DNA of 64,000 nt, from assembly GCA_002502095.1 (NCBI GenBank), contig DAPJ01000005.1, positions 15,763-79,762 on the forward strand, written 5' to 3'. The notes under the pieces are model-generated. The model was not told the origin of the DNA. It ran no database searches and worked only from the letters and a program-made list of their open reading frames with translations. This DNA comes from Euryarchaeota archaeon UBA62. Its GTDB lineage: Archaea > Thermoplasmatota > Poseidoniia > Poseidoniales > Thalassarchaeaceae. The position numbers and the translations under genes are program-made. Shown piece after piece: positions 36,966 through 63,858 of this stretch (its first letter is position 1; each line of letters starts with the position of its first letter).

Positions 36966-39900
36966 ATGTATGCAAGGAAATCAACTTTCCTTGTCCTTAC
37001 TGTTTTGTTATTTTCTTCATGGTCGGGAATGGTTTCCGCCTCTCCTCAAGGTACAGATTCGATACATTCTCAGGATCTCGATAATTATCATTTTGAGAAA
37101 TGGGCCTCTCTGGAATTTGCCTCAGAGCACGTACACCAAATCAGGCAAACTTCAGGCCTAATACACTCGCCGTATGGGTCATTTGATCCATTGATGGATG
37201 ACTACCCAATCTTTGGAGAATTAGATACCGGCGATTACAGTTACTCAGATAGGCCAGTCTTTGTGATTCAATCTGATAGCTCTGACATTTCGGGAATATC
37301 ATATTCAGTGGAAGAGGTAGGGGGCGCAATACTCGACTATATGCCCGATAGCGCGCTTCTTGTGAGGCTTCCCCTACACGTTAATGCTGATAATTTCTTA
37401 GACTCTTTAGCCAATGTAAGGTGGTCCGGGCAAATGCCTGATATCTGGAGGGTATCTCCTGAAATCCTAAGTAACATAAATCTCCCTTCATCACAATTAA
37501 ATCTTCAGATTTTACCTGCTAATGACTTAACTATTGAAGAGCTGACCTCCCTAGAGAGGGACCTATCCCTGATTTCCAATTATGATCAATCAACTAATTG
37601 TGACTCGTGGCTGTGTACGATAGAAAGTATTGATTCAATGTGGATTCCTCTCTTATCCAAAGACTGGAGGATTCTGCATATCCAAACCACAAGCACTGCA
37701 TCGGTATACAATAGCGTGGCTAGAGAAATTTCTGGCGTACAAGGTGCATATGAGCAATCATCGATACCTCTGGATGGAACAGGTGAGGTCATCGCTATTT
37801 CGGACACTGGCCTAGACGAAGATCATGGAGATTTCGATGGAAGAATAAGATCAGTATACAGCCAATTTGGGCCAGATAATGATAACTCGGACCTACTTAG
37901 TGGCCACGGAACCCACGTAGCCGCAACGCTCCTAGGAGACGGCTCAGGACAATCATCCGCACTTGGTATGGCTCCTGGAGCAACATTTCACATGTACACT
38001 CACGAGTCTCAAAGTGGCTTCTTCGGTATTTACGGCTCATTGTATGGCCTATTTACACACTCATGGAATCAGAATGCTAGGATACATACCAATAGCTGGG
38101 GCACATCAAACTTAGGTAATTATAGCCAGACATCTTCTAATGTAGATGATTTCGTAAGCGACTATCCGGGCTATATGGTCCTATTTTCAGCTGGCGATAT
38201 TGGTAATACTAATGATACTGGTATCACCCCTCCTGGTACCTCTAAGAATGCTCTAACAGTGGGTGCATCAACAACTGGTTCTTATGGTTCAGAGCCTTCG
38301 GGAAGCGTAGTTTCTTTCTCATCACAAGGATTGACCAATGATGGCAGAATAAAGCCAGAAATTGTTGCACCCGGAGTCCTCATTTGCTCAGCTAGAGCTG
38401 AGGAAGCAACTCTGGTCGATGGACAATCATGCTCCGAATTAACTCACGACGATGGTACTACACCACTCTATGTCGCAATGAATGGGACCTCTATGGCAAC
38501 ACCTGTGGTTGCGGGGGCATCCGCGCTCGTCCGACAGTTTCTGAGGTCTGAAGGAATCAGTGAGCCCAGGTCCGACCTGATTAGGGCAATTCTAATCAAT
38601 GGGGCTGTAGATATCGGAGATAGTAATGTTCCCAACCCCTCTGAGGGATGGGGACAACTCTCACTCGACAACAGCCTCTTTCCAGTCTCAGAAAATGGAG
38701 TGGAAATGGACGTGATGTATGATTATTCAAGAGAGCTTTTTCCAGGTCATGGATTCACCTACACATTCGATGTAAGTCCAGGTGCAGGACTAGATGCTAC
38801 TCTGGCTTGGAACGATCTAAAGGGGTCATCAGTCGCAAATCAATCAGCCTCTCGTTTAGTTAATGATCTCGATCTTTCTGTTACTGCTCCCGATGGGACA
38901 ATTTACCTTGGAAATGAATTCATTTCCGGATTCAGTGTATCTGGCAACTCCATAGATTCCCTGAACAATCTTGAAAGGGTAAAAATTCAGGATGCCTCGC
39001 CCGGTACTTGGACAGTTAGAGTAGGAAACTCAGGAGGGGATACACAGGGCTATTCTCTGGTATTATCTGCTATAGCGAGTGAGATTAGTGAGGCGGATCT
39101 AACTGTTTTCGAAGGTTCTATATCTACTTCAGTGGAGAATCCTTTGCAAGGCGACACTATTCTAATTGAGGCCGCATGGGGAAACCAAGCTACCGCTACT
39201 GCATTAGAATATGATGTGGAAATCCACGATATGACCACTGGGAACTTATTGCATACCTCAAGACGCTCGTCAATTGCAGGAGGCGGACTTGATTCACTCT
39301 CATTCCCCTACTCATTCTCATCAACAGGTGAGCACATACTCAGACTCTCCCTCGACTCATCTTCGGAGGTATTCGAGTTGAATGACGAGGCCAATGGCAT
39401 TAACAATAACATAGCCGAAATGATCGTACAGGTTTCTCAGATAGGAGTGAGAATTACTCCTCTTTTAGAAAGTGGAAATCTGCCATCCAATCCGCTGGAA
39501 TTTGAAGATTCAAGAACTAGAGGTATGAATCCGAGGGAGACCAACTCTGTATACTTCCCTCTCGAACTTAGAAATGAAGGAACTTCAACTATATCCGTCC
39601 AACTCAGCGTTTCTCCTGTAAATATAGTTTCAGAGAATGGGGTATTGCAACCACCATCAGATGAATGGTGGAAAATCCTCAATCAGACAGGACCATGGGA
39701 ACTAGGGCCGATGGGAAGCGAGGGCGATAGGATAGTGGTCGAGCTAAATCTCACCGCTCATCCACGATCCACTTCTTCATCCCTTCCAGGCGAGGTTTAT
39801 GCTCTCCCAGGTACGTTTGTAACCGATTTGAATCTGTTCGATGTAAACGCCCCCACCGTGAATAACGTAATCAGACTCGAAGCAGAGGTAGACAGAATCG

Positions 39901-41705
39901 AGGGGCTGGTCACAGTTCTAGCTGGAGAAGGAGGGGCAGAGGCCGAACCGGGAGACTGGGCCTCTTTCTCTCTTGCAGTAGGAAATGACGGAAACGGCCC
40001 TACTCGATATATTGTATCATGCTCAACTGAAAATTCATGGCCAGTGAATATCTGGGATTCCCAGTCTTCAGAACTCCTTACAGATCCCATAGGTAGGTTA
40101 CTTTATACTACTCTCCCAATAAAAATTAGGGTTCCTAAATTACCGAATGGTGAGCCCGCCGCGGGAAGTATTGAGGATGTCACATGTGTGACTGAATCTG
40201 TTAACGATCCTTCGTTGAGTATTTCTGATACGGTATCTGTACTCGTACTGGCCAATGATGACTTCGGAACAGAAATATTTTCACCTTCTGGCAACCCACT
40301 AGGTCCTTTGGCATTAGCTTCCGGAAGGGCCGTCATAAACGGAGATATGGTGACTACCACATTAGAAGTCAGCAATAATGGCAATATCCCGATGACATTC
40401 GAAGTAGATGCTTTCTCTTCGCTCAACACTTGGCCAATTCAGATTATTCATGAGGAAGAGGAATCAATGGATTCTATTTCTGTTGAAATATTGTCTGGCC
40501 AAGTAGCAGTTTTCCAGATTAATACTCTGGTTCCAATGGCGGCTCAAATGGGAGATTCCAATACAATCACTACGAGAGTGACACAAATTGGAGGAGATGT
40601 GATTTCCAATGGGACCAAGCTAGTTGTCAGAGAACTGGCAGAGCTGGATATTTCTGGGGACTCCTCTATTTCCGCGGCGCCGGGACTAACAGGGGTTGCG
40701 AATATCATGATTCAGAATTCCGGCAATGTTGATTTGGTAGTGTCCCTGACTCTTGGCACCATACCTTCGGATTGGTCTGGCGGATTCATGACTGCTGGAA
40801 GTTTCGCAATGAATATGAATCAGCAGGCAGTCGTTTCTGTCGCTTTAGAGCTACCAGGTGCTATTCCAGCAGGACCTCAGGAAGAATCGATCCCTGTAAT
40901 AATTGAATTTACAACACCTGCCTTCGTGACACATTCCGAAACTGTTTGGCTAGATGTTTTGGTCTTGTCATCCGCATGGCTAGATCTTTCTGTTCCGGAT
41001 GACACCGTGGAAGATGTATCGCCCGGCAATCCCGCTACTTTCGATATAACCTTGCAGAACATTGGTAATTCTCAGACTGAAGTCTCCCTTGAGGTAGTTG
41101 GTGACGAGAATTGGAGATTTGATGTCGACCCATCATCAGCAGGGACGATAGAGCCCGGAGAATCGATTTCTATAGAGGTAGTGGCAGACCCGGGGGGGAA
41201 TGCAGAGTATGGCATTATTGAGTTGGACGTCTTTGCAAATGGTACAGGGGAAATCGAGGTTTCAACTAATGCATACCTAAAATTACAGGTTAGCAAAGCA
41301 AGGGAATCTACAGAAGGACTCATTCCTTCATGGGCCGTAGGATTAATTTTTATTGTCGTAGTTTCAGTATCTGCCATTCTGATTGTTAGGGCGAGAAGGG
41401 CTTCTTCTCTGGCGGCACGCCCCGATGAAGAACTGATTCCCCCCGGATCAGCACTGCTTACTGGCTCCACTAATGAGAGAAGGGCGGCCGCTTTGGAGAC
41501 TAGCGCTTCAGGAGAAGTCCTTACTGGAACCGTATCCGAGCAAGAACTGAATGATGCAATCTCCTCATCATCACTCCCCTCATTAACTATCGAAAAGGCC
41601 CCTGAAGGAGCCCCTCCCTTGCCACTTTCAGGCCTTCCGGAAGGATGGACAATGGAGCAATGGGCCGCTTACGGTAATATGTGGTGGGAACAGAATCGTC
41701 CGTGA
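36966..41705 (+). CDS. Giant membrane-anchored subtilisin-like protease (peptidase S8) of 1579 aa, with a long C-terminal extension
   Basis: Signal peptide. IAISDTGLDEDHGDF (Asp), HGTHVAATLLGDG (His), NGTSMATPVVAGASALV (Ser). C-terminal TM LIFIVVVSVSAILIV plus about 100-aa tail. Confidence 0.85.
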   Translation: MYARKSTFLVLTVLLFSSWSGMVSASPQGTDSIHSQDLDNYHFEKWASLEFASEHVHQIRQTSGLIHSPYGSFDPLMDDYPIFGELDTGDYSYSDRPVFVIQSDSSDISGISYSVEEVGGAILDYMPDSALLVRLPLHVNADNFLDSLANVRWSGQMPDIWRVSPEILSNINLPSSQLNLQILPANDLTIEELTSLERDLSLISNYDQSTNCDSWLCTIESIDSMWIPLLSKDWRILHIQTTSTASVYNSVAREISGVQGAYEQSSIPLDGTGEVIAISDTGLDEDHGDFDGRIRSVYSQFGPDNDNSDLLSGHGTHVAATLLGDGSGQSSALGMAPGATFHMYTHESQSGFFGIYGSLYGLFTHSWNQNARIHTNSWGTSNLGNYSQTSSNVDDFVSDYPGYMVLFSAGDIGNTNDTGITPPGTSKNALTVGASTTGSYGSEPSGSVVSFSSQGLTNDGRIKPEIVAPGVLICSARAEEATLVDGQSCSELTHDDGTTPLYVAMNGTSMATPVVAGASALVRQFLRSEGISEPRSDLIRAILINGAVDIGDSNVPNPSEGWGQLSLDNSLFPVSENGVEMDVMYDYSRELFPGHGFTYTFDVSPGAGLDATLAWNDLKGSSVANQSASRLVNDLDLSVTAPDGTIYLGNEFISGFSVSGNSIDSLNNLERVKIQDASPGTWTVRVGNSGGDTQGYSLVLSAIASEISEADLTVFEGSISTSVENPLQGDTILIEAAWGNQATATALEYDVEIHDMTTGNLLHTSRRSSIAGGGLDSLSFPYSFSSTGEHILRLSLDSSSEVFELNDEANGINNNIAEMIVQVSQIGVRITPLLESGNLPSNPLEFEDSRTRGMNPRETNSVYFPLELRNEGTSTISVQLSVSPVNIVSENGVLQPPSDEWWKILNQTGPWELGPMGSEGDRIVVELNLTAHPRSTSSSLPGEVYALPGTFVTDLNLFDVNAPTVNNVIRLEAEVDRIEGLVTVLAGEGGAEAEPGDWASFSLAVGNDGNGPTRYIVSCSTENSWPVNIWDSQSSELLTDPIGRLLYTTLPIKIRVPKLPNGEPAAGSIEDVTCVTESVNDPSLSISDTVSVLVLANDDFGTEIFSPSGNPLGPLALASGRAVINGDMVTTTLEVSNNGNIPMTFEVDAFSSLNTWPIQIIHEEEESMDSISVEILSGQVAVFQINTLVPMAAQMGDSNTITTRVTQIGGDVISNGTKLVVRELAELDISGDSSISAAPGLTGVANIMIQNSGNVDLVVSLTLGTIPSDWSGGFMTAGSFAMNMNQQAVVSVALELPGAIPAGPQEESIPVIIEFTTPAFVTHSETVWLDVLVLSSAWLDLSVPDDTVEDVSPGNPATFDITLQNIGNSQTEVSLEVVGDENWRFDVDPSSAGTIEPGESISIEVVADPGGNAEYGIIELDVFANGTGEIEVSTNAYLKLQVSKARESTEGLIPSWAVGLIFIVVVSVSAILIVRARRASSLAARPDEELIPPGSALLTGSTNERRAAALETSASGEVLTGTVSEQELNDAISSSSLPSLTIEKAPEGAPPLPLSGLPEGWTMEQWAAYGNMWWEQNRP

Positions 41706-44989: not shown

Positions 44990-45269
44990 CCGTGCTACTG
45001 AGAGATGTTTTAGCCAGCTAATGAAAGCTAACTATCCCGGTTACTTCATATACCGAATGTAGGTCGCCGAGATGCTTTGTGTGCTCCTTGGTACAGTCGT
45101 GTATCAGGGTAAGAAGGTTGAGACCGCTTCGCCCTGCGGGGAGACGTAGTGGTCAGAGAAACCTGAATTGATATGCCTGGAATACCAGAGGAATCGCCTC
45201 TTCACTTGTGGAGGGGCGATTAAAACTCACACAGGTGGGTATGTGGAATCACAATGATGCTACAACCCG

Positions 45270-48138
<2,869 letters not shown>

Positions 48139-48218
48139 ATCAAGAATTCACATATTAAGCCCTGTGTGGGCCTCTGTTCAATCAAGCATATCAATTCACA
48201 CATTCGAAAGAAAGTTGT

Positions 48219-48334
48219 GCACGGCCACAGCGGAGGGGTAATACCCGGTCCCATATCGAACCCGGAAGTCAAGACCTCCTGCGTCGATTCCTGTACTGTG
48301 GTGCGAGAGCCCACGGGAACGATCGTCGCTGTGC
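48219..48334 (+). rRNA. rrf: 5S ribosomal RNA
   Basis: GCACGGCCACAGCGGAGGGGTAATACCCGGTCCCATATCGAACCCGGAAGTCAAGACCTCCTGCG...GTGCGAGAGCCCACGGGAAC...GCTGTGC. The terminal helix 5' gcacggc pairs with 3' gctgtgc. About 80 nt downstream of the 23S gene and followed by a T-rich tract. Confidence 0.85.
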
Positions 48335-48335
48335 C

Positions 48336-48352
48336 TTCTTTCTTTCTCATAA
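48336..48352 (+). terminator. T-rich tract (cttctttctttctcat) downstream of 5S, a likely archaeal oligo-T terminator
   Basis: Pyrimidine/T-rich run immediately after the 5S 3' end. Confidence 0.4.
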
Positions 48353-54988: not shown

Positions 54989-57772
54989 TCACTGACTCTT
55001 CCCTGCCTCAACCTGCCTGGCTAGGAAGCTAACGACATCCAATATTTCGAAGTCATGTCTTGGGTCCCCTTCGAACTTTAGGCACTCGAAATGGGAGACA
55101 CACTTTGGACAGGATGTCAGCATGATGTCAGCCCCAGTTGCGTTTACCTCTTCGAATCTCTGGACTCTCAAAGCTCTACTATTCTCATTACAGCTCATCA
55201 TACTGGAAACACCACAGCAAAGTGCATCTTCGCCATGATGCTCCATCTCTACTAGGTTAACTCCTTCTACGTTGGATATGAGGTCCCTTGGCTGGTCATA
55301 GATATTCATCTGCCTCCCTAGTCTGCATGGGTCATGGAAAGTGACCGTAACATCGTCATCCGATTGTAGATTCATGTCAAAACCATTCTCTACCAGGAAT
55401 TCAGTGGTATGCATCACCTTCATGTCCTCCAACTCATAGTCCAGGGCGAATGTTCTGAAGCACTCGGCGCAAGATGTCACTAGGGTGTCAATCCCACTCT
55501 CTCCTAGTTTCTTCTGATTGTACGCCTTGAGCTTCTCAAAGACTTCTGTCATTCCTTGCCATTTCTGATCATGGCCACAGCACTTCAAGAAATCCCTACC
55601 AAGGTAAGTGACATCTTCACCCATCTCTTCGAATAGCGTGAATGCGGAAGTTGTAGCATCTCCTAGATTCATGGAACCTTCGTTGACGTGACTGAAAATC
55701 ATTTCTTGATCCAGGTAGTCGACACATCCTGGGTAGTATCCGATGTTCGAATCAATTGGATACTCATCAATCGACATGAAGTATCCGTCAGCATCCTCCT
55801 CTGCTTCAGCAGCTAGGACCGCCTGTAATACAGTATGAGGAATTTCAGTAGCAGGAGGGCCGCCGACTATCATATTCCTCCTGATGTCAACATATGAATC
55901 ATAATCCACTAGTTGGGGACAGGCATTGGTACAAGCAGAGCACGTCAGACATGAATACAAAGGAACCCCGTCGTCCTCATTGTTCCAAGTATTGTAGATG
56001 ATGTTCAGCTTATCTCCAGAGTTGAATAGCCTCACTGGACAAGCGTCATCACAAAGATCGCAGCCGTAGCACTTGTTCATCTCGTATTCGTATCCTCTCG
56101 CCATGCTCCTCATGAGCATGAATACCAAAGCACCGACTCCCAGACAAGGTATGAATAACGAATATATCAATTTCGCATCAAGACTCTTCGGATTCTTGTG
56201 ATACGTTGGATTCTTCAAGTACATTGCCGACATGGTCTCTAGATCCAGAGTCGACTCTGACCTGACTAGTGAAGTGCCATCATCATTCAACAGTAGGGGC
56301 TGGTATGCTACCACAGACAAGCTCGTGATTACCTCTACAGACTCGTTGATTCCTTGCGATGTGGTCATGTAAGAAACACTGTAAGTATTCCCCGCATCTA
56401 GGTATATGGTTTCCGAAACACACCCTTCCGTACTCCAAATTTCATCTCCTGACGAGTCACTTAGAACCAAACTCTGAGAATGGACACCTGCTCCTCTGAC
56501 TGTAGTCCTGAATAGACATCCAATATCCGCTGGAACTTCGGAAACTCCCAGGTCTTCTACTTCGAATGTCATACTTACTTCGTATGTAATCTCAGATCCA
56601 TCTGCAGTCCCGGGGAAAGATGTTTCATCCTCGGCCGAATTTCTACCTGTGGCACTGTCGGCATGTCCATTATCACCTGCAAAGTCAATTATCTTGAATT
56701 TCGTAGGTTGGAAAATACCCCAATTAGACCAATGCGTCGCGGCAATGACACACCAATCAGAGGGATCTTCTTCTGATGACAATCCATTCCATGCAGCCAG
56801 TGTTGAGCTTTCCTCATAAGGTATGCATTCGTCTTCCCAGTCAGCCCAAACATTCCCTTCCTCTACGTGTACAAGGGTGTCAGAAGGCTGTGCCCTGAGG
56901 GAATCCAAGTCTTCGACATCGTCCATGGCACCGAGCCCACCATAGTCCCAGAAACCATTCTCATACACAGGCCATGTGACAACAGATATGAGTACAGCGG
57001 CAATTAGAGATCCTACAGCAACCTGACGACCAATCCTTGGGGTAACTCTGGAACCTACTGAGCTAAGCAGGAATTTCCTGGTAGGGAAATATATGACTGC
57101 GAATAAGAAAATTCCAGTAAGTATCCACGGAACCGCATTGAAAACCTCAGCAGTCCAGGGGGCTTGTCTTCCACACATTAGTTCAGAATGAGAACCAGTA
57201 AAGCAATAGTCACTACGATCTTTGGCATACAAGTCTAGGAATATATTGATCGAGAAAACCGATATGAACCAGACATGGGCTAAATAAACAGCTCCCGCAG
57301 TTGCAAACCATGGATCTTCAACCCCTCTCTTTTCTCTACCGGGTAGGAAGGGGGGAAGTGCGAGAATACCAACAGGAAGTCCTGTAATTGCGGCTCCCCA
57401 CCAAGCAGCGTTCCAATCGATAACAGGAGTTCCGAAGAACTCTCCGATAGGGCCTGCTGGAATCACAAATTGAGGAAGATACTCGCCCCATCTTAGGTAT
57501 CCGTATGAAAACAGAACGTACCAATCGGGGAATACGAAACCAGCTTGCGCGAATGGATCAGCCGCACTATGCAGTGGGGGAGGTATCAGCCAAGAGTAGA
57601 ATGCTATGGTCATGACAATCGAGGCAAAAATTATCGTATCTCGAAGTACTTCAGTAGGCCAGAAAGGATGTCCAGTAAACGTCCTCCTCCTCTCGGTATC
57701 AGCTTCCAAAAGCTTGTTTCTCTCGCTGATGTATGTATCAGCAATTCTACCAAATCTATCCATCATCCCCAT
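54989..57772 (-). CDS. Fusion protein: cytochrome b6f subunit IV (PetD)-like quinol-site domain, large acidic ectodomain, one TM, and a cytoplasmic HdrD/GlpC-like module (2x[4Fe-4S] plus 2 CCG domains)
   Basis: N-terminus YGEPAWP-like HPFWPTEVLRDTIIFASIVMTIAFYSWLIPPPLHSAADPFAQAGFVFPDWYVLF has the PEWY-equivalent PDWY. C-terminal CYGCDLCDDACP and CLTCSACTNACP ferredoxin motifs. Two CCG motifs LKCCGHDQ...DPCRLG and ALCCGVSS. Confidence 0.8.
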   Translation of the reverse strand: MGMMDRFGRIADTYISERNKLLEADTERRRTFTGHPFWPTEVLRDTIIFASIVMTIAFYSWLIPPPLHSAADPFAQAGFVFPDWYVLFSYGYLRWGEYLPQFVIPAGPIGEFFGTPVIDWNAAWWGAAITGLPVGILALPPFLPGREKRGVEDPWFATAGAVYLAHVWFISVFSINIFLDLYAKDRSDYCFTGSHSELMCGRQAPWTAEVFNAVPWILTGIFLFAVIYFPTRKFLLSSVGSRVTPRIGRQVAVGSLIAAVLISVVTWPVYENGFWDYGGLGAMDDVEDLDSLRAQPSDTLVHVEEGNVWADWEDECIPYEESSTLAAWNGLSSEEDPSDWCVIAATHWSNWGIFQPTKFKIIDFAGDNGHADSATGRNSAEDETSFPGTADGSEITYEVSMTFEVEDLGVSEVPADIGCLFRTTVRGAGVHSQSLVLSDSSGDEIWSTEGCVSETIYLDAGNTYSVSYMTTSQGINESVEVITSLSVVAYQPLLLNDDGTSLVRSESTLDLETMSAMYLKNPTYHKNPKSLDAKLIYSLFIPCLGVGALVFMLMRSMARGYEYEMNKCYGCDLCDDACPVRLFNSGDKLNIIYNTWNNEDDGVPLYSCLTCSACTNACPQLVDYDSYVDIRRNMIVGGPPATEIPHTVLQAVLAAEAEEDADGYFMSIDEYPIDSNIGYYPGCVDYLDQEMIFSHVNEGSMNLGDATTSAFTLFEEMGEDVTYLGRDFLKCCGHDQKWQGMTEVFEKLKAYNQKKLGESGIDTLVTSCAECFRTFALDYELEDMKVMHTTEFLVENGFDMNLQSDDDVTVTFHDPCRLGRQMNIYDQPRDLISNVEGVNLVEMEHHGEDALCCGVSSMMSCNENSRALRVQRFEEVNATGADIMLTSCPKCVSHFECLKFEGDPRHDFEILDVVSFLARQVEAGKSQ

Positions 57773-57782
57773 TTATCACACC

Positions 57783-58649
57783 TCAATGTGGCTCCGCTAT
57801 ACCTTGTGCCCAAACAATGAACAAATGTGCAAGAATGAGCGAAGTAACTACTACTGGAAGTATGAAGACATGAAGGAAGTACATTCTGGTAACCGTCTGT
57901 CCTGAGATTGTAGTACCGGCGAACATAGCGGTTGCAACCCAACCTCCAATCAGAGGGGTACTATTTGCCATGTTGATTCCAATAGTTGCAGCACCGAATG
58001 CTAGGCTATCCCATGGGAGGAGGTATCCTGAATAGCCAAAGAAAATTGTGAAGAACATCAGTGCGACTCCAATCAACCAGTTTAATTCCCTAGGATTCCT
58101 GTAAGCACCGGTGAAGTAGACCCTACACATGTGCAGGAATACAGCAGCGACCATGAAGTGCGTAGTCCAGTGATGTATGGATCTGATGATGTATCCGAAA
58201 GGAAGTTGTGTCATTATGAATTCCATGCTACTATACGCAGGAGTTGGATCTCCCTCTCCACCCGGTACGTAGTATAGTCCTAGAACAGTACCTGTCAGAA
58301 CTAGGATTACGAATGCCAAGAAGGAAATCCCACCTAGGCAGTATAGGGGATACCAATACCAAATTATTCTGAGCTTGTATTTCTCAGCATGAGTCATGGG
58401 CATTTGCCTGTGCATGCCGTAGTACGCATCCCTGCTCATCCCCCAGTAGTCCTGAATTCTGAATCTTGTATCTAGCCACGAGAATGCCCACAGGAATGAC
58501 TTTTCTGCTAGACCCATGCTACTAGCACTAGTCTCGACCGCTCGCAGTATTTCTTTCCTCGGCATCTCCTCTCTTTCTTTCCTCAGTGTTAGAGCTACTA
58601 TTACTACAACTAAGGTTATGAAGACCCATAGAAACCAGAATTGAATCAT
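57783..58649 (-). CDS. petB: Cytochrome b6-type cytochrome b (N-terminal 4-helix haem domain)
   Basis: SIHHWTTHFMVAAVFLHMCRVYFTGAYR...PRELNWLIGV...GYLLPWD. Haem His pairs spaced 14 (helix B) and 15 (helix D) as in b6. Confidence 0.85.
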   Translation of the reverse strand: MIQFWFLWVFITLVVVIVALTLRKEREEMPRKEILRAVETSASSMGLAEKSFLWAFSWLDTRFRIQDYWGMSRDAYYGMHRQMPMTHAEKYKLRIIWYWYPLYCLGGISFLAFVILVLTGTVLGLYYVPGGEGDPTPAYSSMEFIMTQLPFGYIIRSIHHWTTHFMVAAVFLHMCRVYFTGAYRNPRELNWLIGVALMFFTIFFGYSGYLLPWDSLAFGAATIGINMANSTPLIGGWVATAMFAGTTISGQTVTRMYFLHVFILPVVVTSLILAHLFIVWAQGIAEPH

Positions 58650-58658
58650 TTTCTCACC

Positions 58659-59513
58659 TCAGTCGCAATATGTGTACCAGTCTTTGAAATCAGGCAGAGC
58701 CTCTATCAAATCTCCGTTAAGAACGAATGGAATCAATGGCATCCCCATTGGTGCCGGACCTCCGGCCCTCTTAATCCCAATGAAATCAAATTCAGCACCA
58801 CTTGATCTATTTCTGGCCCTATTCTTCTCTATGACAGTAGGGTCGAACCTAGACGAGTGACAGATACAGAACAGCTTACTTCCCCCAGAGTCAGTTCCAC
58901 TTGGAACCCACTGGTCTTCGGTAAATTCGTTAGTAACCAGTTGCCACCCCGGGATGCAACAAAGGTGCGTACACCTTGAAAATATTAGTATCAGGTTGTC
59001 ATGTATGGAAAGAGACTGATATTGGGGATCTTCATCTAGCTCGTATCCAGAGCCAACATATGAGCCATCTGCCGTGTATCCATCCATAAATTGAAATCGA
59101 GGCTTATCCTCAATGAGGGCACTACCCTTATTCTCTTCATGAGGTACATACACTGCATTTACTGGCATTCCCGACCATACTCCCTGGGCTGCTGACATCC
59201 CCGTGGCGGAACTGGCGGCCGCATCGACGAACGATTGGTATGTCATGGGCTCCAAGTGCCTATCTCCGTACCATACACTATCCTCTGCCCCCGTCGGTAC
59301 CCAGTATCTCACAGCAGTGTCTCCTCCATCTGCTTCTGCCTGCCCCATTAGTAAGGATGCGAACCCAACACTCCCAATGCTGGCAACGGTAATGGCACCA
59401 GCGGCGGTATTGAACGAGTGCCTCATGAACTCGCGCCTGTCTATCAGGTGCCCCTCTCCGGACGAATCCTCCGAGCTTGAAGAACTATCTCTGAGCGTGA
59501 ATTTTCTTGCCAT
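58659..59513 (-). CDS. petA: Rieske [2Fe-2S] iron-sulfur protein with a twin-arginine (Tat) signal
   Basis: Tat motif DRREFMRHSFNTAAGA. Rieske box I CTHLCCIPGW and box II LFCICHSSRFD. Confidence 0.85.
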   Translation of the reverse strand: MARKFTLRDSSSSSEDSSGEGHLIDRREFMRHSFNTAAGAITVASIGSVGFASLLMGQAEADGGDTAVRYWVPTGAEDSVWYGDRHLEPMTYQSFVDAAASSATGMSAAQGVWSGMPVNAVYVPHEENKGSALIEDKPRFQFMDGYTADGSYVGSGYELDEDPQYQSLSIHDNLILIFSRCTHLCCIPGWQLVTNEFTEDQWVPSGTDSGGSKLFCICHSSRFDPTVIEKNRARNRSSGAEFDFIGIKRAGGPAPMGMPLIPFVLNGDLIEALPDFKDWYTYCD

Positions 59514-59515
59514 AC

Positions 59516-59965
59516 TTACACCTCATATTTCTTCCATGATTCAGGATCTTTCGTAGTGATATACTTGTTTCTCCTGCTCTTCACGATTACTATGTCAGGC
59601 ATTACATACTTCATGTATATCATTCCCAGTATTATTACAGTAAGCAATAACATCCCTAAGAAGAAAGACAACATCTGTTGATCCCATTTATTGTAAAGCC
59701 CATATGAAAGTGAACCAGCCCAGTAAAGTGACCAAACTATTCCCCAAAGGCCTACTAAAATTATTAGCCATGAATCTCCAGAAGGAGAGACGCTGGCTCT
59801 AACAATAGACCCTGCAGGGGCCTCATTGAAAACCCCGTGTTCAATCGCAGTCTCATAAGCCTCCTCTGTGAGAGATATTCCATCAAGGGCCTCCCTGGCG
59901 TCTTCCACGCTCACCTCTCCCGATGCTACCTGCCTGAGCATCTTCATTACTACGTCATCCCTCAT
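59516..59965 (-). CDS. Small membrane protein: about 60-aa soluble N-terminus plus 2 TM, co-transcribed with the Rieske/cyt b genes
   Basis: 149 aa. Hydrophobic helices WLIILVGLWGIVWSLYWAG and FFLGMLLLTVIILGMIYM. 2-nt gap to the Rieske gene. Confidence 0.5.
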   Translation of the reverse strand: MRDDVVMKMLRQVASGEVSVEDAREALDGISLTEEAYETAIEHGVFNEAPAGSIVRASVSPSGDSWLIILVGLWGIVWSLYWAGSLSYGLYNKWDQQMLSFFLGMLLLTVIILGMIYMKYVMPDIVIVKSRRNKYITTKDPESWKKYEV

Positions 59966-60783
59966 TACTGATCACCCCTTCTCTGGTGCTTAATCCTCAG
60001 TCTCAGAAGATTACTCCTGCCCTCATAATGTCTTGAGAATCCATACCTCAACATCAATCCACAAAAGATAATCACGATAACAACAGCGGCGAAGCCGAGC
60101 AGCCCTAGCCAATGCGCCCTCATACCAGCTCCCATGTGGTGTAGGTCCACCCCTTCTTCCACAGGTGCCGGTGGCTCTATGTCACCATTTCCTACGAATA
60201 CAGTCCTCGTCCCTCCAAATTCACCTTCATCTATAGACGCACTTAGCCTGTTCCACCTGTCCAGTTGCGAGGGAATCCCGTCTCCATTAACCGAGTTCCC
60301 AGCCAACCAAATCGTAACAACACCAGTACCTTCTTCTGGAGCAGTCCATGTGATATGCCAAGTTCTGTCAGAAACCTTCGATCCAGAATTGCTGTGAGTG
60401 AGTGTAGAAAGATCGTCTTCCCAGTTGTACATCAAGGACTCAAATCCAGCCGAGGCGGTGAGGGTACCTTCGCTAACCCTCATGGAAAATCCACCGGTAT
60501 GGGAAGTCGTATCTGCCACAGGACCCCCAATGATTTGAATTGACATTTCATAGGAATCTCCTGGTTGGTAACGATGGGGGACATCGGTCAATATTAGAGT
60601 GACAGAATTATCCGGCTCCTCGGCGTGACATGTGCATCCTGCAAGCGCCACATCTCCCTCATTATTCGCATCGCCACCTATGCCTGTGGGATTGGCCTGT
60701 GACCCACCAGCCGTCAGCACAGCGACAATAGTGATAGCCAGTACCTTCCTTACGGTGAGCACACTCGACGCCATCCACAACAC
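59965..60783 (-). CDS. Secreted, C-terminally anchored protein encoded by the first gene of the Rieske/cyt b operon (putative redox partner, unknown cofactor)
   Basis: Signal peptide VRKVLAITIVAVLTAGGSQA. About 200-aa ectodomain with GCTCH and a His/Met-rich HHMGAGMRAHW segment. TM WLGLLGFAAVVIVIIFCGLML plus basic tail. Confidence 0.5.
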   Translation of the reverse strand: MLWMASSVLTVRKVLAITIVAVLTAGGSQANPTGIGGDANNEGDVALAGCTCHAEEPDNSVTLILTDVPHRYQPGDSYEMSIQIIGGPVADTTSHTGGFSMRVSEGTLTASAGFESLMYNWEDDLSTLTHSNSGSKVSDRTWHITWTAPEEGTGVVTIWLAGNSVNGDGIPSQLDRWNRLSASIDEGEFGGTRTVFVGNGDIEPPAPVEEGVDLHHMGAGMRAHWLGLLGFAAVVIVIIFCGLMLRYGFSRHYEGRSNLLRLRIKHQRRGDQ

Positions 60784-60872: not shown

Positions 60873-61223
60873 ATGCCGTCACACCAAACTAATATGCCAA
60901 GTCTAAGAGGAAGTGATATGTCAGGGCCCGTTTGGAGGAATGTGTACAGTCTTAACGAGGATCAAATATCGAAACTTGACGAGGCCGAGGACCATATGGA
61001 GATGATGAGAATCGGTCCCGCTGAAAAAATACTCATCGAACTTCTCGAGCAAGAACCAGAGTGCGTTCCGGTCCTGAACGTCATGGCACACCTCCAGGGA
61101 AGGTATTTATCAGACTTCGAGAAAGCTGTAGAATTCTATGATAAGGTACTTGCTATAGAACCAGATAATGCATGGGCAAGAGATGAGAGAAGACGTTACA
61201 CAAGATATTCCAGTTATGATTGA
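60873..61223 (+). CDS. Small TPR-like protein (hypothetical)
   Basis: 116-aa ORF. ...YLSDFEKAVEFYDKVLAIEPDNAWA is TPR-like. Overlaps the start of the following ftsZ-like gene by 8 nt. Confidence 0.4.
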   Translation: MPSHQTNMPSLRGSDMSGPVWRNVYSLNEDQISKLDEAEDHMEMMRIGPAEKILIELLEQEPECVPVLNVMAHLQGRYLSDFEKAVEFYDKVLAIEPDNAWARDERRRYTRYSSYD

Positions 61224-62163
61224 GCAATTCTATACGCCTACCCCATACTCGAGGTTCGTGAACGACGGAGAGGTCCTAATAGCCGGAGTCGGAGGCTTGG
61301 GTTGTATATGGGCTATTGAGGCTCATTCAAGATGCTCAGAATTATCCGAGTTACTGTTAATCGATGCCGATGAAAGCTCCTTCGAAGGAGCTAACGAGGC
61401 TAATTGCTTGTATCTCGATGCAGGAGGGGAGGGCAGAGGCGCAGCAGCTCTTCCTTCAATGGCAACACACAGGCTGAGAAATGGTATTGACTCAATTTCT
61501 TCTCTACTTGAAGGGGCCGAGGTGCTCATCCTATTGACTGGTTTGGGGGGAGGAATGGGATCTGGTGCTTCGGGGGAACTGGCAAGGATAGCAAATCAAC
61601 ACGGTTGCATGGTTCTTTCTATCGCGGGCCTTCCCTTTGCAGAACAGCCACTAAGGTGTTCGATTGCAGAGGCAGCAATCCCTTCATTAGAAGTAAATTC
61701 CAGCGTGTGTATCAGAGTCAGTATGGAGAGATTAGCTTGGCAGTCTAGGAGCAGGAAGACGAATTGGATGACAGGTTCAGGTTGGATAGCGGAACTCGTT
61801 GAAGGACTTGTTACGACCCTAGCTAGTGTGGGAAGAATAAATCTAGATTTAATGGATATGAGAGCAATAATAAACAAAGAAGGAAATGCTACTTTGATAG
61901 TTGGAACGGGTGTATCTGAGAATCCTAAATCAGTAGTTGAGATGGCTAGAAACTCACCTCTAAATGACATTCCAGTAGAAGGCGCCAAGGGTTGTATGAT
62001 TCAGGTCGAAGGAGGCCCAGATATGACTCTAGCACACCTGACAGAATTAACAGACTCATTCGTATCATCCATGGACCCAGACTGCCAGGTCATCATGGGA
62101 GCCAGAGTTAGTGATGAGATGGTCGGTAAGCTCAGGCTCGTCGCAGTAGTTAGTGGGATTTAG
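61216..62163 (+). CDS. Divergent FtsZ/tubulin-superfamily GTPase (short, about 315 aa)
   Basis: T1-like LIAGVGGLGCIWAI. T3-like DAGGEGRGAAALP. T4 signature altered to GLGGGMGSGASG (canonical GGGTGSG). T7-like GRINLDLMDMRAI. C-terminal domain pattern ...GNATLIVGTGVSE...ARNSPL...GAKGCMIQVEGGPDMTL...LRLVAVVSGI parallels the FtsZ C-domain. Confidence 0.7.
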   Translation: MIEQFYTPTPYSRFVNDGEVLIAGVGGLGCIWAIEAHSRCSELSELLLIDADESSFEGANEANCLYLDAGGEGRGAAALPSMATHRLRNGIDSISSLLEGAEVLILLTGLGGGMGSGASGELARIANQHGCMVLSIAGLPFAEQPLRCSIAEAAIPSLEVNSSVCIRVSMERLAWQSRSRKTNWMTGSGWIAELVEGLVTTLASVGRINLDLMDMRAIINKEGNATLIVGTGVSENPKSVVEMARNSPLNDIPVEGAKGCMIQVEGGPDMTLAHLTELTDSFVSSMDPDCQVIMGARVSDEMVGKLRLVAVVSGI

Positions 62164-62499: not shown

Positions 62500-63858
62500 T
62501 TAGGGATAATTCCATTCCATCTTTTGAGCATCCGAAACCAAGACTTCACTGCCATCGACTTCTATGCACAAGAATCCATCATTGTCTAGTCCAATAATCC
62601 TGACCCTTTCATTCTCAATCTCAGCTACTACGCCTCTAGAAAGACTGGATGACAATGCCTTCCAGCTAGAAATTTCCAGCGACCTTTGATCAAGATCTGG
62701 TACCATTTCGAGTCTTTCAAGAATTCCAGAGACCCCACTGTCCACCATACTGAACACTTCTTCTAGGGAAACGTCGCCAATGGTATCGCTCCACCCAAGG
62801 CAAGGAATTCCATTAACCACCCTTGGTGATGAATTAATTCCAATCCCTATCCTAAAGCCAGGATTAGAACTATTCGCTTCAATCATTATCCCCCCTATTT
62901 TCTCCCCACGGATGGAGATCAGGTCATTGGGCCACTTCAGTTCACAACTTAGTGACTTCGAAACCGCGGCGCCAATCCCTATCTGTAGCATTCCAGGGGT
63001 GGAAATCTCGGTTGGCTCTCTGTTGATTTTCCACGATGCCAGTAAATCTCCAGGAATAGACTCCCATTTTGATCCTCTTCTCCCTCTGCCAGAAAGCTGG
63101 TCTCCTACAATCAGTCTCTGCCACCCCTCGTCCGGCAAATGAATCACTCCATCCATTGCAGAATCACATATTTCCTCTCTCTTTTCCTTTGACCCTGAAC
63201 CAGTCCTCCACATAGCAAAGACCTCCAATCTCTCATCGCCAATCCTCTTCATTTCCAATGATCTGCAAGACCACCCAGACATTAACCAGACAGAAGGGCT
63301 ACTGGGACTAATTGGGTCCGTTCTAAATAGAAGAACGACCGTCAAATCATCATTGTTCCTAACTTTCAGACTTTTCAATAACTCTTCTGACCAGCCACCA
63401 TCTCCCAAATCAGTCAGTGACGCCTCCTCGATAGGCTCCAATACCGGCCCATTAGGGTCTGGGGGATTGAGATATGGTAGATTCCATACAATCAACTTAG
63501 TTCCATCTGGTATGCCCCATCCATCCTCGCCAACCCCACCTTCTCTAACTATTACATTTCTCTCAAATCCATTTCTTTCTATGTTAGCTCTAGAACAGGC
63601 TACAGCATATGGATTGACATCATATGATAAAACACTCCAGCCGAGAGCAGAAAGTGCCATGGAGACCACGCCCGTGCCACATCCTATCTCTATTGCATTC
63701 GATGCATTCCCCTCCAGTCTTGAAATCGCCCTGCAGAGCAATTCAGTGTCCTCACGAGGAGGATAAACTGTCGGAGCCACATCAATTTCCCAAGGGCCGA
63801 AGTTTTCCATTTCAAATATCATCCTCTTCATATAAATCATCACCCGCTCAGTTCTCAA
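62500..63858 (-). CDS. Fusion protein: Mtq2/HemK-like class-I SAM methyltransferase (N-terminal) plus biotin-[acyl-CoA-carboxylase] ligase BirA catalytic and C-terminal domains
   Basis: N-terminus VYPPREDTELL...IEIGCGTGVVSMALSALG...YDVNPYAV...IVWNLPYLNPP (SAM motif I plus NPPY-like motif). C-terminus QLSGRGRRGSKWESIPGDLLASW (BirA GRGRRGR-W-SP-G-L signature) plus an SH3-like tail. Confidence 0.75.
   Translation of the reverse strand: MRTERVMIYMKRMIFEMENFGPWEIDVAPTVYPPREDTELLCRAISRLEGNASNAIEIGCGTGVVSMALSALGWSVLSYDVNPYAVACSRANIERNGFERNVIVREGGVGEDGWGIPDGTKLIVWNLPYLNPPDPNGPVLEPIEEASLTDLGDGGWSEELLKSLKVRNNDDLTVVLLFRTDPISPSSPSVWLMSGWSCRSLEMKRIGDERLEVFAMWRTGSGSKEKREEICDSAMDGVIHLPDEGWQRLIVGDQLSGRGRRGSKWESIPGDLLASWKINREPTEISTPGMLQIGIGAAVSKSLSCELKWPNDLISIRGEKIGGIMIEANSSNPGFRIGIGINSSPRVVNGIPCLGWSDTIGDVSLEEVFSMVDSGVSGILERLEMVPDLDQRSLEISSWKALSSSLSRGVVAEIENERVRIIGLDNDGFLCIEVDGSEVLVSDAQKMEWNYP

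What the first reader, a model, noticed from the sequence alone, without database searches (positions are those of the whole stretch)
61216..62163. Short, divergent FtsZ/tubulin homologue with an altered T4 GTP-binding loop (GGGMGSG)
Both the N-terminal GTPase and C-terminal FtsZ domains are recognisable (T1, T3, T7 and C-domain patterns). However the protein is only about 315 aa, lacks the C-terminal linker and tail peptide, and replaces the invariant Thr of GGGTG(S/T)G by Met. It is preceded by a small overlapping TPR-like ORF and followed by Pop5. It could be a non-canonical FtsZ paralogue (FtsZL/CetZ-like) rather than the division FtsZ.
Basis: seen in the sequence. Interest (0 to 1): 0.6.

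Follow-up and report, generated by a model that had tools for sequence, protein, structure and literature searches.

The report
Tail-less divergent FtsZ2-like protein of MGII archaea
This gene encodes a stripped-down, fast-evolving relative of the cell-division protein FtsZ. It occurs only in Marine Group II archaea, sits beside a small TPR partner gene, and exists in addition to a normal FtsZ1, so it is a lineage-specific variant and not the standard division FtsZ.

Summary
A complete FtsZ core with the T4 loop GGGMGSG is encoded here. The true gene is 61258..62163 (GTG start, 301 aa). It does not overlap the upstream TPR gene.

It belongs to a family found in at least 432 species-representative Poseidoniales (Marine Group II) genomes. 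Every member ends at or within about 10 residues of the last strand, so the family has no linker and no SepF-binding tail. The T7 catalytic loop and the glycine loops are invariant, but the base-contacting residues are replaced. The Thr-to-Met change is sub-lineage noise: that position is M, T, V, S or I within the family.

Poseidoniales also encode a canonical FtsZ1, shown here in the same MAG (GCA_002712285.1), and SepF. My NJ tree and a published ML tree place the family on a very long branch on the FtsZ2 side. There it is sister to the more ordinary FtsZ2-like protein of Marine Group III.

A 101-aa two-repeat TPR gene with the same taxonomic range always lies 8-45 nt upstream. Both genes show dN/dS of about 0.03.

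Best reading: a diverged, core-only FtsZ2 descendant that still polymerises and is recruited through the TPR partner instead of a tail. I rate it a new variant of a known kind, of moderate interest.

The parts
61258..62163 (+). Coding sequence of the divergent core-only FtsZ ('FamX'): 301 aa, GTG start, stop codon included.
   Evidence: Pfam Tubulin plus FtsZ_C. Start fixed by the alignment of ten loci and by homologue N-termini. AF2 model pLDDT 88.3, FtsZ fold at TM 0.87. dN/dS 0.025-0.032.
61285..61311 (+). T1 loop, GVGGLGCIW (canonical GxGGAGNNT). Gly10, 12, 13 and 15 and Trp18 are invariant in the family; the two Asn are lost.
61360..61380 (+). T2 region, IDADESS (canonical INTDxQ). Asp36 and Asp38 are invariant in the family.
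61432..61455 (+). T3 loop, GRGAAALP (canonical GLGAGGxP).
61546..61566 (+). T4 signature loop, GGGMGSG. Met100 (61555..61557) replaces the canonical Thr. This position varies within the family (M/T/V/S/I).
61633..61656 (+). T5 loop, PFAEQPLR (canonical PFxxE[GR]xxR). P126, F127, Q130 and R133 are invariant in the family.
61765..61785 (+). Helix H7 base-contact stretch, WMTGSGW (canonical AFxxxDxx[IL]). W170, G173 and W176 are invariant. There is no acidic residue where canonical FtsZ has the guanine-binding Asp.
61840..61857 (+). T7 synergy loop, NLDLMD. N195, D197 and D200 are invariant (canonical NxDxxD).
60918..61223 (+). Partner gene: a 101-aa protein with two TPR repeats and a capping helix. 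Its C-terminus EPDNAWARDERRRYxRYxxYD is invariant.
   Evidence: It lies directly upstream on the same strand in all 80 genome loci that reach that far and in distant members. It has 529 homologues, nearly all with Poseidoniales-type names. AF2 pLDDT 90.2. TPR fold. dN/dS about 0.03.
61224..61257 (+). Non-coding spacer between the TPR stop and the FamX start (34 nt here, 8-45 nt in relatives). It contains GAGGT just before the GTG.

Best explanation
The gene 61258..62163 encodes a 301-aa 'core-only' member of the FtsZ family.

Origin. It belongs to a clade restricted to Poseidoniales (Marine Group II archaea). That clade descends from the archaeal FtsZ2 lineage and went through a burst of divergence. 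Its counterpart in the sister order MGIII is a fairly ordinary 348-aa FtsZ2-like protein with N- and C-terminal tails. Poseidoniales keep a canonical FtsZ1 with a C-terminal peptide, plus SepF, elsewhere in the genome.

What is shown:
- a complete FtsZ fold;
- invariant glycine-rich phosphate loops (T1, T4);
- an invariant T7 loop N-x-D-x-x-D;
- strong purifying selection;
- near-universal presence in the order.

What I infer from that. The protein still binds a nucleotide and assembles head-to-tail into filaments, in which the T7 loop of one subunit activates hydrolysis in the next. It works in the division ring in the FtsZ2-type (constriction) role, alongside FtsZ1.

What it has lost:
- the N-terminal extension;
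- the C-terminal linker and the peptide that binds SepF;
- the base-recognition residues: both T1 Asn, the T2 Asn-Thr, the T6 Asn and the H7 Asp. Family-invariant Trp residues appear in their neighbourhood.

Its nucleotide preference or kinetics probably differ from canonical FtsZ, and it cannot be tethered through a tail. I infer that the co-transcribed 101-aa TPR protein, which has the same taxonomic range, is its adaptor to the membrane, the divisome or FtsZ1.

The Thr-to-Met change in T4 is a neutral or minor sub-lineage variant at a position this family no longer constrains.
For: Family and fold:
- Pfam Tubulin and FtsZ_C both pass their cut-offs.
- The AF2 model has pLDDT 88.3 and superposes on FtsZ at TM 0.82-0.87.

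Distribution:
- 432 confirmed copies in GTDB species-representative genomes. The best 80 are all Poseidoniales or Thalassarchaeaceae apart from one likely mis-binned record.
- There are 538 protein clusters.

Separateness from canonical FtsZ:
- Scores drop from 177 bits for the most distant family member to about 130 bits for any single-domain canonical FtsZ.
- The family scores below the TIGR00065 cut-off.

A canonical FtsZ1 exists in MGIIa and MGIIb:
- Examples are EHR75921.1, MBD18563.1 and MBN16930.1, with VIPNERL, PFxSEG and the tail NRHIEFVN.
- Co-occurrence in one assembly, GCA_002712285.1, is shown.
- SepF is listed in 4 of 5 Poseidoniales genomes.

Placement in the tree:
- HMM scores run FtsZ2 > FtsZ1 ~ bacterial for every member.
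- In the NJ tree the family is monophyletic at 100%, and the split FamX + MGIII clade + FtsZ2 versus FtsZ1 + bacteria has 96% support.
- In the published LG+R10 tree the same clade (PXF22034.1, MBA88363.1 and others, identified by sequence) sits on a stem of 1.87 substitutions per site, sister at UFBoot 70 to the MGIII clade inside the Thermoplasmatota FtsZ2 region.
- The MGIII gene has the FtsZ2-typical upstream RHH-like ORF, though the match is weak.

Catalytic anatomy is given.

Selection and rate:
- dN/dS is 0.025-0.032.
- FamX is 37-46% identical between MGIIa and MGIIb, against 60-66% for FtsZ1.

Partner gene:
- TPR-FamX adjacency holds at 36-100% FamX identity while the downstream genes change.
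- The TPR family is confined to the same lineage.
- Its fold is confirmed.
Against: - No experiment exists, and no nucleotide binding or polymerisation has been shown.
- The FtsZ2 placement rests on a very long branch and is unstable. In two other published trees the clade attaches to Methanocella (support 83) or Nanopusillus (support 58) long branches. My FamX + MGIII grouping (79%) may be long-branch attraction.
- Several base- and ribose-contact residues are replaced, so the pocket could bind something else, or bind weakly.
- The TPR link is inferred only from conserved adjacency and co-distribution, in a lineage whose local gene order is conserved in general. The divergent cytochrome b cluster is equally conserved next to the pair.
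- A further FtsZ paralogue in some Poseidoniales is not excluded. The UBA557 contig labels do not match, and UBA196 is listed with three FtsZ genes.
Confidence: 0.55

Rival explanations
1. FamX is an additional, lineage-specific cytoskeletal paralogue with a job outside cytokinesis, for example cell shape, envelope or organelle-like positioning, in the way CetZ works in haloarchaea. It would act together with the TPR protein.
For: - Extreme divergence and loss of the SepF-binding tail.
- A changed nucleotide pocket.
- A new operon partner instead of the FtsZ2-typical RHH gene.
- Poseidoniia also lack the Arco division-site system.
- Possible extra FtsZ genes in UBA557 and UBA196.
Against: - It has FtsZ_C and the FtsZ-type T7 loop, and no CetZ-like features.
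- The tree places it as the MGII counterpart of the MGIII FtsZ2-like gene, with no MGII sequence in the MGIII clade and none of MGIII in the MGII clade.
- Named PosZ-type proteins are only 'Ca. Poseidoniia archaeon', never Poseidoniales.
Confidence: 0.22
2. FamX is a non-polymerising regulator or end-cap of FtsZ1 filaments. It keeps the T7 face to dock onto and stimulate the GTP of an FtsZ1 subunit, but its own nucleotide site is too altered to extend the filament.
For: T7 is invariant, while the T1, T2, T6 and H7 base contacts are replaced. There is no tail for independent anchoring.
Against: In a family only 35% identical overall, these pocket residues are invariant: the glycines of T1 and T4, D36 and D38, P126, F127, Q130, R133, W170 and W176. 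That indicates a ligand-binding pocket under selection, not a dead site.
Confidence: 0.12
3. It is simply the (divergent) division FtsZ1 of this organism.
For: The best PDB sequence hit is M. jannaschii FtsZ1. It lies near informational genes: a possible Pop5, then rpoH-rpoB-rpoA.
Against: A separate canonical FtsZ1 exists in MGIIa and MGIIb, and in the same MAG. Support for FamX + FtsZ1 is 0%. FamX scores lower against FtsZ1 HMMs than against FtsZ2 HMMs.
Confidence: 0.02
4. It is a decaying gene remnant or an annotation artefact.
For: Short length, lost tails and replaced 'invariant' residues.
Against: There are 432 species-level copies. dN/dS is about 0.03. The reading frames are intact, and the predicted fold is confident and complete.
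Confidence: 0.01

Closest known systems
Archaeal FtsZ2 (e.g. Haloferax volcanii HVO_0581) and the FtsZ2-like protein of Marine Group III (e.g. MBN65140.1 / P0310 family, ~348 aa)
   Same: - Same two-domain FtsZ fold and the T7 loop INLD-x-x-D.
- Highest HMM scores are against FtsZ2.
- It lies on the same side of the FtsZ1/FtsZ2 split.
- It is sister to the MGIII clade in a published ML tree.
   Different: - Identity is only 21-30%.
- It has no N-terminal extension and no C-terminal linker or GID-type peptide.
- T1 NN, T2 NT, T6 N and H7 D are replaced.
- The upstream gene is a TPR protein, not an RHH/CopG-type protein.
Archaeal FtsZ1 (M. jannaschii MJ0370, PDB 1FSZ/1W5A; Poseidoniales EHR75921.1)
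   Same: Closest solved structure by sequence (E 3e-29) and a close fold match (TM 0.86).
   Different: It is a separate paralogue present in the same genomes. Identity is 24-32%. FtsZ1 keeps the VIPN(E/D)(R/K)L and PFxxEG motifs and a C-terminal tail.
CetZ (haloarchaeal tubulin-like shape proteins)
   Same: Both are additional, non-canonical FtsZ/tubulin-superfamily proteins in Euryarchaeota.
   Different: No CetZ chain appears among the PDB sequence hits at E<=0.01 or the top 50 fold hits. FamX has the FtsZ_C domain and groups with FtsZ proper.
FtsZL1 / Tubulin_2 (PF13809) proteins of Makarova and Koonin 2010
   Same: Both are divergent members of the superfamily.
   Different: FamX matches Tubulin PF00091 and FtsZ_C, not Tubulin_2. 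FtsZ-like proteins lack FtsZ_C and carry large extensions.

Membership tests
FtsZ family (Pfam Tubulin PF00091 + FtsZ_C PF12327) | Both domains score above the Pfam gathering cut-offs. | tested here: met
   47.5 bits against 33, and 61.3 bits against 27. Fold TM 0.82-0.87 to FtsZ structures.
FtsZ family | Tubulin signature GGGTG(S/T)G in T4. | tested here: inconclusive
   The window copy has GGGMGSG. Family members have T, M, V, S or I at the fourth position. The glycines are invariant.
FtsZ family | T7 synergy loop N-x-D-x-x-D. | tested here: met
   NLDLMD. N195, D197 and D200 are invariant in A1, and the two Asp are invariant across A2.
FtsZ family | GTP binding, GTPase activity and polymerisation. 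| not testable with these tools
   Only sequence conservation of the loops is available.
Canonical cell-division FtsZ (NCBIfam TIGR00065 equivalog) | Score at or above the curated cut-off of 295.2 bits. | tested here: not met
   123.8 bits.
Archaeal division FtsZ (FtsZ1 or FtsZ2) | C-terminal linker plus a conserved GID-type peptide that binds SepF. | tested here: not met
   The protein ends ...VVSGI. 198 of 210 members have at most 2 residues after the last strand and a few have 7-10. The motif is defined.
Archaeal FtsZ1 | Groups with FtsZ1 in phylogeny and is the FtsZ1 of its genome. | tested here: not met
   0% bootstrap support. A separate FtsZ1 is present in the same MAG.
Archaeal FtsZ2 | Groups with FtsZ2 in phylogeny. 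| tested here: inconclusive
   The NJ split has 96% support and the HMM preference is for FtsZ2. In the published ML tree it is sister to the MGIII FtsZ2-like clade at UFBoot 70, but its position changes in two other trees. The stem is a long branch of 1.87.
Archaeal FtsZ2 | Frequent neighbourhood with an RHH/ParD-type gene. | tested here: not met
   The upstream gene is a TPR protein. The MGIII relative has a weak RHH_1 ORF upstream. The feature is described.
CetZ | Closer to CetZ or tubulin than to FtsZ. | tested here: not met
   No CetZ among the 49 PDB sequence hits or the top 50 Foldseek hits.
FtsZL1 / Tubulin_2 | Tubulin_2 (PF13809) domain, no FtsZ_C, large extensions. | tested here: not met
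   Only PF00091 and PF12327 match.
TPR repeat proteins (the partner gene) | Helix-turn-helix TPR hairpins. | tested here: met
   The AF2 model has 5 helices at pLDDT 90.2. Foldseek gives rmsd 1.0-1.5 A to consensus TPR and to Hsp90-peptide-binding TPR domains. Pfam TPR_19 scores 25.2 bits against a cut-off of 25.

The most novel reading that the evidence does not exclude
Marine Group II archaea run a tail-less FtsZ system. A core-only FtsZ2 descendant would have a remodelled base pocket (guanine-specific Asp and Asn lost, invariant Trp residues gained) that has changed its nucleotide specificity or turned it into a slow, stable polymer. It would be coupled to the membrane or divisome not by a C-terminal peptide and SepF but by a dedicated two-repeat TPR adaptor.
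Probability: 0.15. Interest if true: 0.75.

Novelty: new variant of a known kind. Interest (0 to 1): 0.5.

Why it matters
Marine Group II archaea are among the most abundant planktonic archaea and have no cultured representative, so their cell biology is known only from sequence.

This work shows that they pair a normal FtsZ1 (and SepF) with a radically diverged FtsZ2-type protein. That protein has no tail, has a changed nucleotide pocket and has a dedicated TPR partner. This gives a concrete, testable picture of how their divisome differs from the haloarchaeal model.

It also offers a natural 'minimal core' FtsZ for asking which features of FtsZ are needed for assembly and anchoring.

Practically, it explains why annotation pipelines call this gene 'hypothetical protein'. 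It also warns that FtsZ1/FtsZ2 censuses may mis-count it.

Tried and rejected
1. The 348-aa canonical FtsZ family reached through P0137 first looked like the second Poseidoniales FtsZ. Its member MBN65140.1 turned out to be Marine Group III, and its named members are only 'Ca. Poseidoniia archaeon'. It is therefore the MGIII counterpart, not a paralogue in MGII.
2. The tandem-FtsZ proteins P0127, P0128 and P0131 scored above single FtsZs only because two canonical domains add up. They are not relatives of the family.
3. The long ORF starts at 61168 and 61216 were rejected.
4. Literature searches for FtsZ with Poseidoniales, MGII or Marine Group II found no discussion of this protein. Only supplementary tables and trees contain it.
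5. Counting paralogues per genome from the published tree failed, because that dataset was filtered for redundancy.
6. No second FtsZ lies in the window or in any fetched locus.
7. Testing the 98-aa ORF as Pop5 gave essentially nothing.
9. A TPR-FamX complex prediction was not attempted, because the tool returns no interface measures.
Full report
**What is there.** The protein hits Pfam Tubulin (47.5 bits) and FtsZ_C (61.3 bits), both above their cut-offs. It reaches only 123.8 bits against the NCBI ftsZ equivalog TIGR00065, whose cut-off is 295.2. All 49 PDB sequence hits are FtsZ, and the best is M. jannaschii FtsZ1 at E 3e-29. The T4 loop is GGGMGSG at 61546..61566.

**Gene model.** Ten homologous loci align on an invariant ATG/GTG that corresponds to GTG 61258. 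Between it and the TPR stop codon lies a spacer that varies in length and sequence. Distant homologues and NCBI gene calls start at M-x-x-G-x-(I/L)-L-I-x-G. The 'conserved' N-terminal extension MHGQEMRED of the long ORF is the other reading frame of the TPR protein's invariant NAWARDERRRY. The gene is therefore 61258..62163 (301 aa), separated by 34 nt from the TPR gene 60918..61223 and not overlapping it.

**Family and distribution.** A search of 5.8 billion proteins found 538 relatives of 299-332 aa. Named ones come from Candidatus Poseidoniales, Thalassarchaeaceae and Thalassarchaeum, usually annotated 'hypothetical protein'. Against 1.8 billion 50%-identity representatives the family extends down to 35% identity (P0121, P0124, P0125, P0126). 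Scores then fall to about 130 bits and 24-32% identity for every single-domain canonical FtsZ, whether bacterial, FtsZ1-like or FtsZ2-like. A scan of one genome per GTDB species found 432 confirmed copies. The best 80 are all Marine Group II MAGs or SAGs, apart from one likely mis-binned record.

**What else these organisms have.**
- Pende et al. 2021 (PMC8178401, Suppl. Data 1) list 1-3 FtsZ homologues, usually two, in five Poseidoniales genomes, plus SepF in four of the five and no ESCRT-III.
- The supplementary alignments of Santana-Molina et al. 2023 (PMC9871819) contain a canonical FtsZ1 from MGIIa and MGIIb: EHR75921.1, MBK30505.1, MBD18563.1 and MBN16930.1. These carry GGAG(C/N)N, NTDAQ, PFxSEG, (I/L)PN(E/D)(R/K)L, VNLDFEDL and a C-terminal tail ending ...NRHIEFVN.
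- FtsZ1 MBD18563.1 is from GCA_002712285.1. The family member P0280 is encoded on PATC01000030.1 of the same assembly. The two proteins therefore co-occur in one MAG.
- A 348-aa canonical-looking family that I first took for the second MGII FtsZ belongs to Marine Group III. It was reached through P0137, and its tail reads ...LGxxIPMVN. Its member MBN65140.1 is labelled MGIII CG-Epi1.
- MGIII also has its own FtsZ1 (OIR21645.1).

**Phylogenetic position.**
- Profile HMMs built from labelled sets score every family member higher against archaeal FtsZ2 (130-180 bits) than against FtsZ1 (107-156 bits) or bacterial FtsZ (85-151 bits). Haloarchaeal FtsZ2 was recognised by the published N- and C-terminal peptides.
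- My NJ tree used 300 columns and 200 bootstraps. The family is monophyletic at 100%. It joins the MGIII clade at 79%. The split {family + MGIII clade + FtsZ2} versus {FtsZ1 + bacteria} has 96% support.
- Mean corrected distance to any canonical group is 1.8-2.0, against 0.9-1.4 among the canonical groups.
- The same clade is already in the published LG+R10 tree. I identified it there by sequence: PXF22034.1 of Thalassarchaeum betae also has GGGMGSG, and MBA88363.1 of MGIIa-K1 has GGGTGTG. It sits on a stem of 1.87 substitutions per site, sister at UFBoot 70 to the MGIII clade, inside the region holding other Thermoplasmatota FtsZ2 sequences.
- In two other trees of that paper the clade attaches to other long branches: Methanocella at support 83 and Nanopusillus at support 58. 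The FtsZ2 affinity is therefore likely but not secure.
- The paper's text does not discuss the clade.
- Within Poseidoniales the family is 37-46% identical between MGIIa and MGIIb, where FtsZ1 is 60-66% identical.

**Anatomy.** The AF2 model (pLDDT 88.3, pTM 0.88) is a complete FtsZ globular core with nothing before strand S1 and nothing after the last strand. It superposes on B. subtilis, S. aureus, M. jannaschii and E. coli FtsZ at TM 0.82-0.87 with 22-25% identity. The table compares each nucleotide-site element with canonical archaeal FtsZ.

| Element | Canonical FtsZ | This family | Notes |
|---|---|---|---|
| T1 | GxGGAGNNT | GVGGLGCIW | Four Gly and the Trp invariant; both Asn lost |
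| T2 | INTD | IDAD | Both Asp invariant |
| T3 | GLGAGGxP | GRGAAALP | |
| T4 | GGGTGTG | GGG[M/T/V/S/I]GSG | |
| T5 | PFxVE(R/G)xR | PFAEQPLR | P, F, Q, R invariant |
| T6 | Asn | Met or Leu | |
| H7 | AFxxxDxx(I/L) | (N/D)WxxGxxW | Stacking Phe becomes invariant Trp; guanine-binding Asp becomes Ser, Ala or Gly |
| T7 | INLDxxD | INLDLMD | N, D, D invariant |

The phosphate-binding and catalytic elements are kept, and the base-recognition elements are rebuilt and then conserved. Of 210 unique members, the fourth T4 residue is M in 122, T in 76, V in 7, S in 3 and I in 1. MGIIa FtsZ1 itself has Ser at that position.

**The partner.** A 101-aa ORF lies on the same strand 8-45 nt upstream in all 80 genome loci that reach that far. 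The same holds in members only 36-40% identical, where the downstream genes differ. Its 529 detectable homologues are essentially all 101-aa proteins with Poseidoniales-type names, and its C-terminus EPDNAWARDERRRYxRYxxYD is invariant. The AF2 model (pLDDT 90.2) has five helices, that is two TPR hairpins and a cap. Its closest structures are consensus TPRs and peptide-binding TPR domains of Hsp90 co-chaperones, at rmsd 1.0-1.5 A. dN/dS against close relatives is 0.025-0.032 for the FtsZ-like gene and 0.029-0.033 for the TPR gene. In MGIII the FtsZ2-like gene is instead preceded by a 131-aa ORF with a weak RHH_1 N-terminus. That is the association published for ftsZ2.

**Most likely mechanism.**
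- Shown: a conserved, selected, complete FtsZ core with an intact T7 loop and intact Gly loops, no tails, a canonical FtsZ1 and SepF elsewhere in the genome, and an obligatorily adjacent TPR gene.
- Inferred: it binds a nucleotide and forms T7-activated head-to-tail filaments. It fulfils the FtsZ2-type role at the division ring beside FtsZ1. Because it cannot bind SepF through a C-terminal peptide, it is positioned through the TPR protein or by association with FtsZ1. Its altered base pocket changes nucleotide preference or turnover.
- I put 0.55 on this package. The weakest steps are the FtsZ2 orthology and the adaptor role of the TPR protein.

**Rivals.**
- An extra paralogue with a non-division cytoskeletal role (0.22).
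- A non-polymerising cap or regulator of FtsZ1 (0.12). The invariance of the pocket residues argues against this.
- A divergent FtsZ1 (0.02, refuted by co-occurrence).
- Gene decay or annotation artefact (0.01, refuted by selection and distribution).

**Comparison and novelty.** The protein is a member of the FtsZ family in the broad sense: the domains, the fold and T7 were all tested and met. It fails the equivalog score, the exact T4 signature in this copy, and the C-terminal peptide. It is not FtsZ1, CetZ or FtsZL1. Its FtsZ2 membership is inconclusive. The sequences are public and sit unremarked in published trees and counts. I found no description of the clade, its tail loss, its pocket remodelling or its TPR partner. 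I rate it a new variant of a known kind.

**Open points.**
- Pende's table places the two FtsZ genes of UBA557 on contigs DARI01000017.1 and DARI01000018.1, whereas this family's copy is on DARI01000013.1. A third FtsZ gene in some genomes is therefore not excluded.
- The 'Pop5' identity of the 98-aa downstream ORF is unverified. That ORF is not adjacent in distant members.

Noticed in passing
window 45250-48147 (+) and 48217-48337 (+): A 23S rRNA gene followed by 5S rRNA, with no 16S rRNA next to them and no tRNA gene anywhere in the 64 kb. This is an unlinked rRNA arrangement.
   Followed up: partly
window 54989-60783 (-): A conserved respiratory-type cluster, always divergently adjacent to the TPR-FtsZ-like pair in Poseidoniales. 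It comprises a 272-aa protein, a 149-aa DUF7318 membrane protein, a 284-aa protein, cytochrome b (288 aa) and a 927-aa CCG/4Fe-4S protein. The 284-aa protein has a Tat-like RREFMR and Rieske-like CTHLCC...CICHS motifs but no Pfam hit.
   Followed up: partly
Its invariant motifs are RGKxRW(I/V)G and SGKI(R/K)LVRxR. The window copy has no Pfam or PDB match, and one of 11 homologues hits Rpp14/Pop5 at E 0.025. The identity stays open.
   Followed up: yes
window 62500-63858 (-): A fusion protein with an N-terminal PrmA/MTS-type methyltransferase domain and a C-terminal biotin/lipoate protein ligase domain. It is conserved in all related loci, between the FtsZ-like gene and rpoH-rpoB-rpoA.
   Followed up: no
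window 2311-6540, 10129-15867, 36966-41705 (+): Three very large proteins: 1409 aa with a beta-helix, 1912 aa with no Pfam match, and a 1579-aa subtilase with an NPCBM-associated domain. Smaller CARDB and subtilase genes lie at 67-2223. They look like surface or secreted proteins.
   Followed up: no
L084 5602-5997 and L002 8683-9081 (Marine Group III contigs): The MGIII FtsZ2-like gene is preceded, with a 4-nt gap or a 1-nt overlap, by a 131-132-aa ORF. In the L084 copy the N-terminus weakly matches RHH_1 (E 0.01); the L002 copy has no Pfam hit. This fits the published ftsZ2-RHH association.
   Followed up: partly
Published sequences EHR75921.1 and MBK30505.1: The canonical FtsZ1 of MGIIa has GGGSGTG in T4, with Ser instead of the 'invariant' Thr. 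MGIIb FtsZ1 has GGGTGTG.
   Followed up: no
L081 (UBA557, DARI01000013.1): The contig carrying this family's gene in UBA557 is not one of the two FtsZ contigs that Pende et al. 2021 list for that MAG. Either there is a third FtsZ-family gene or the contig labels differ between sources.
   Followed up: partly
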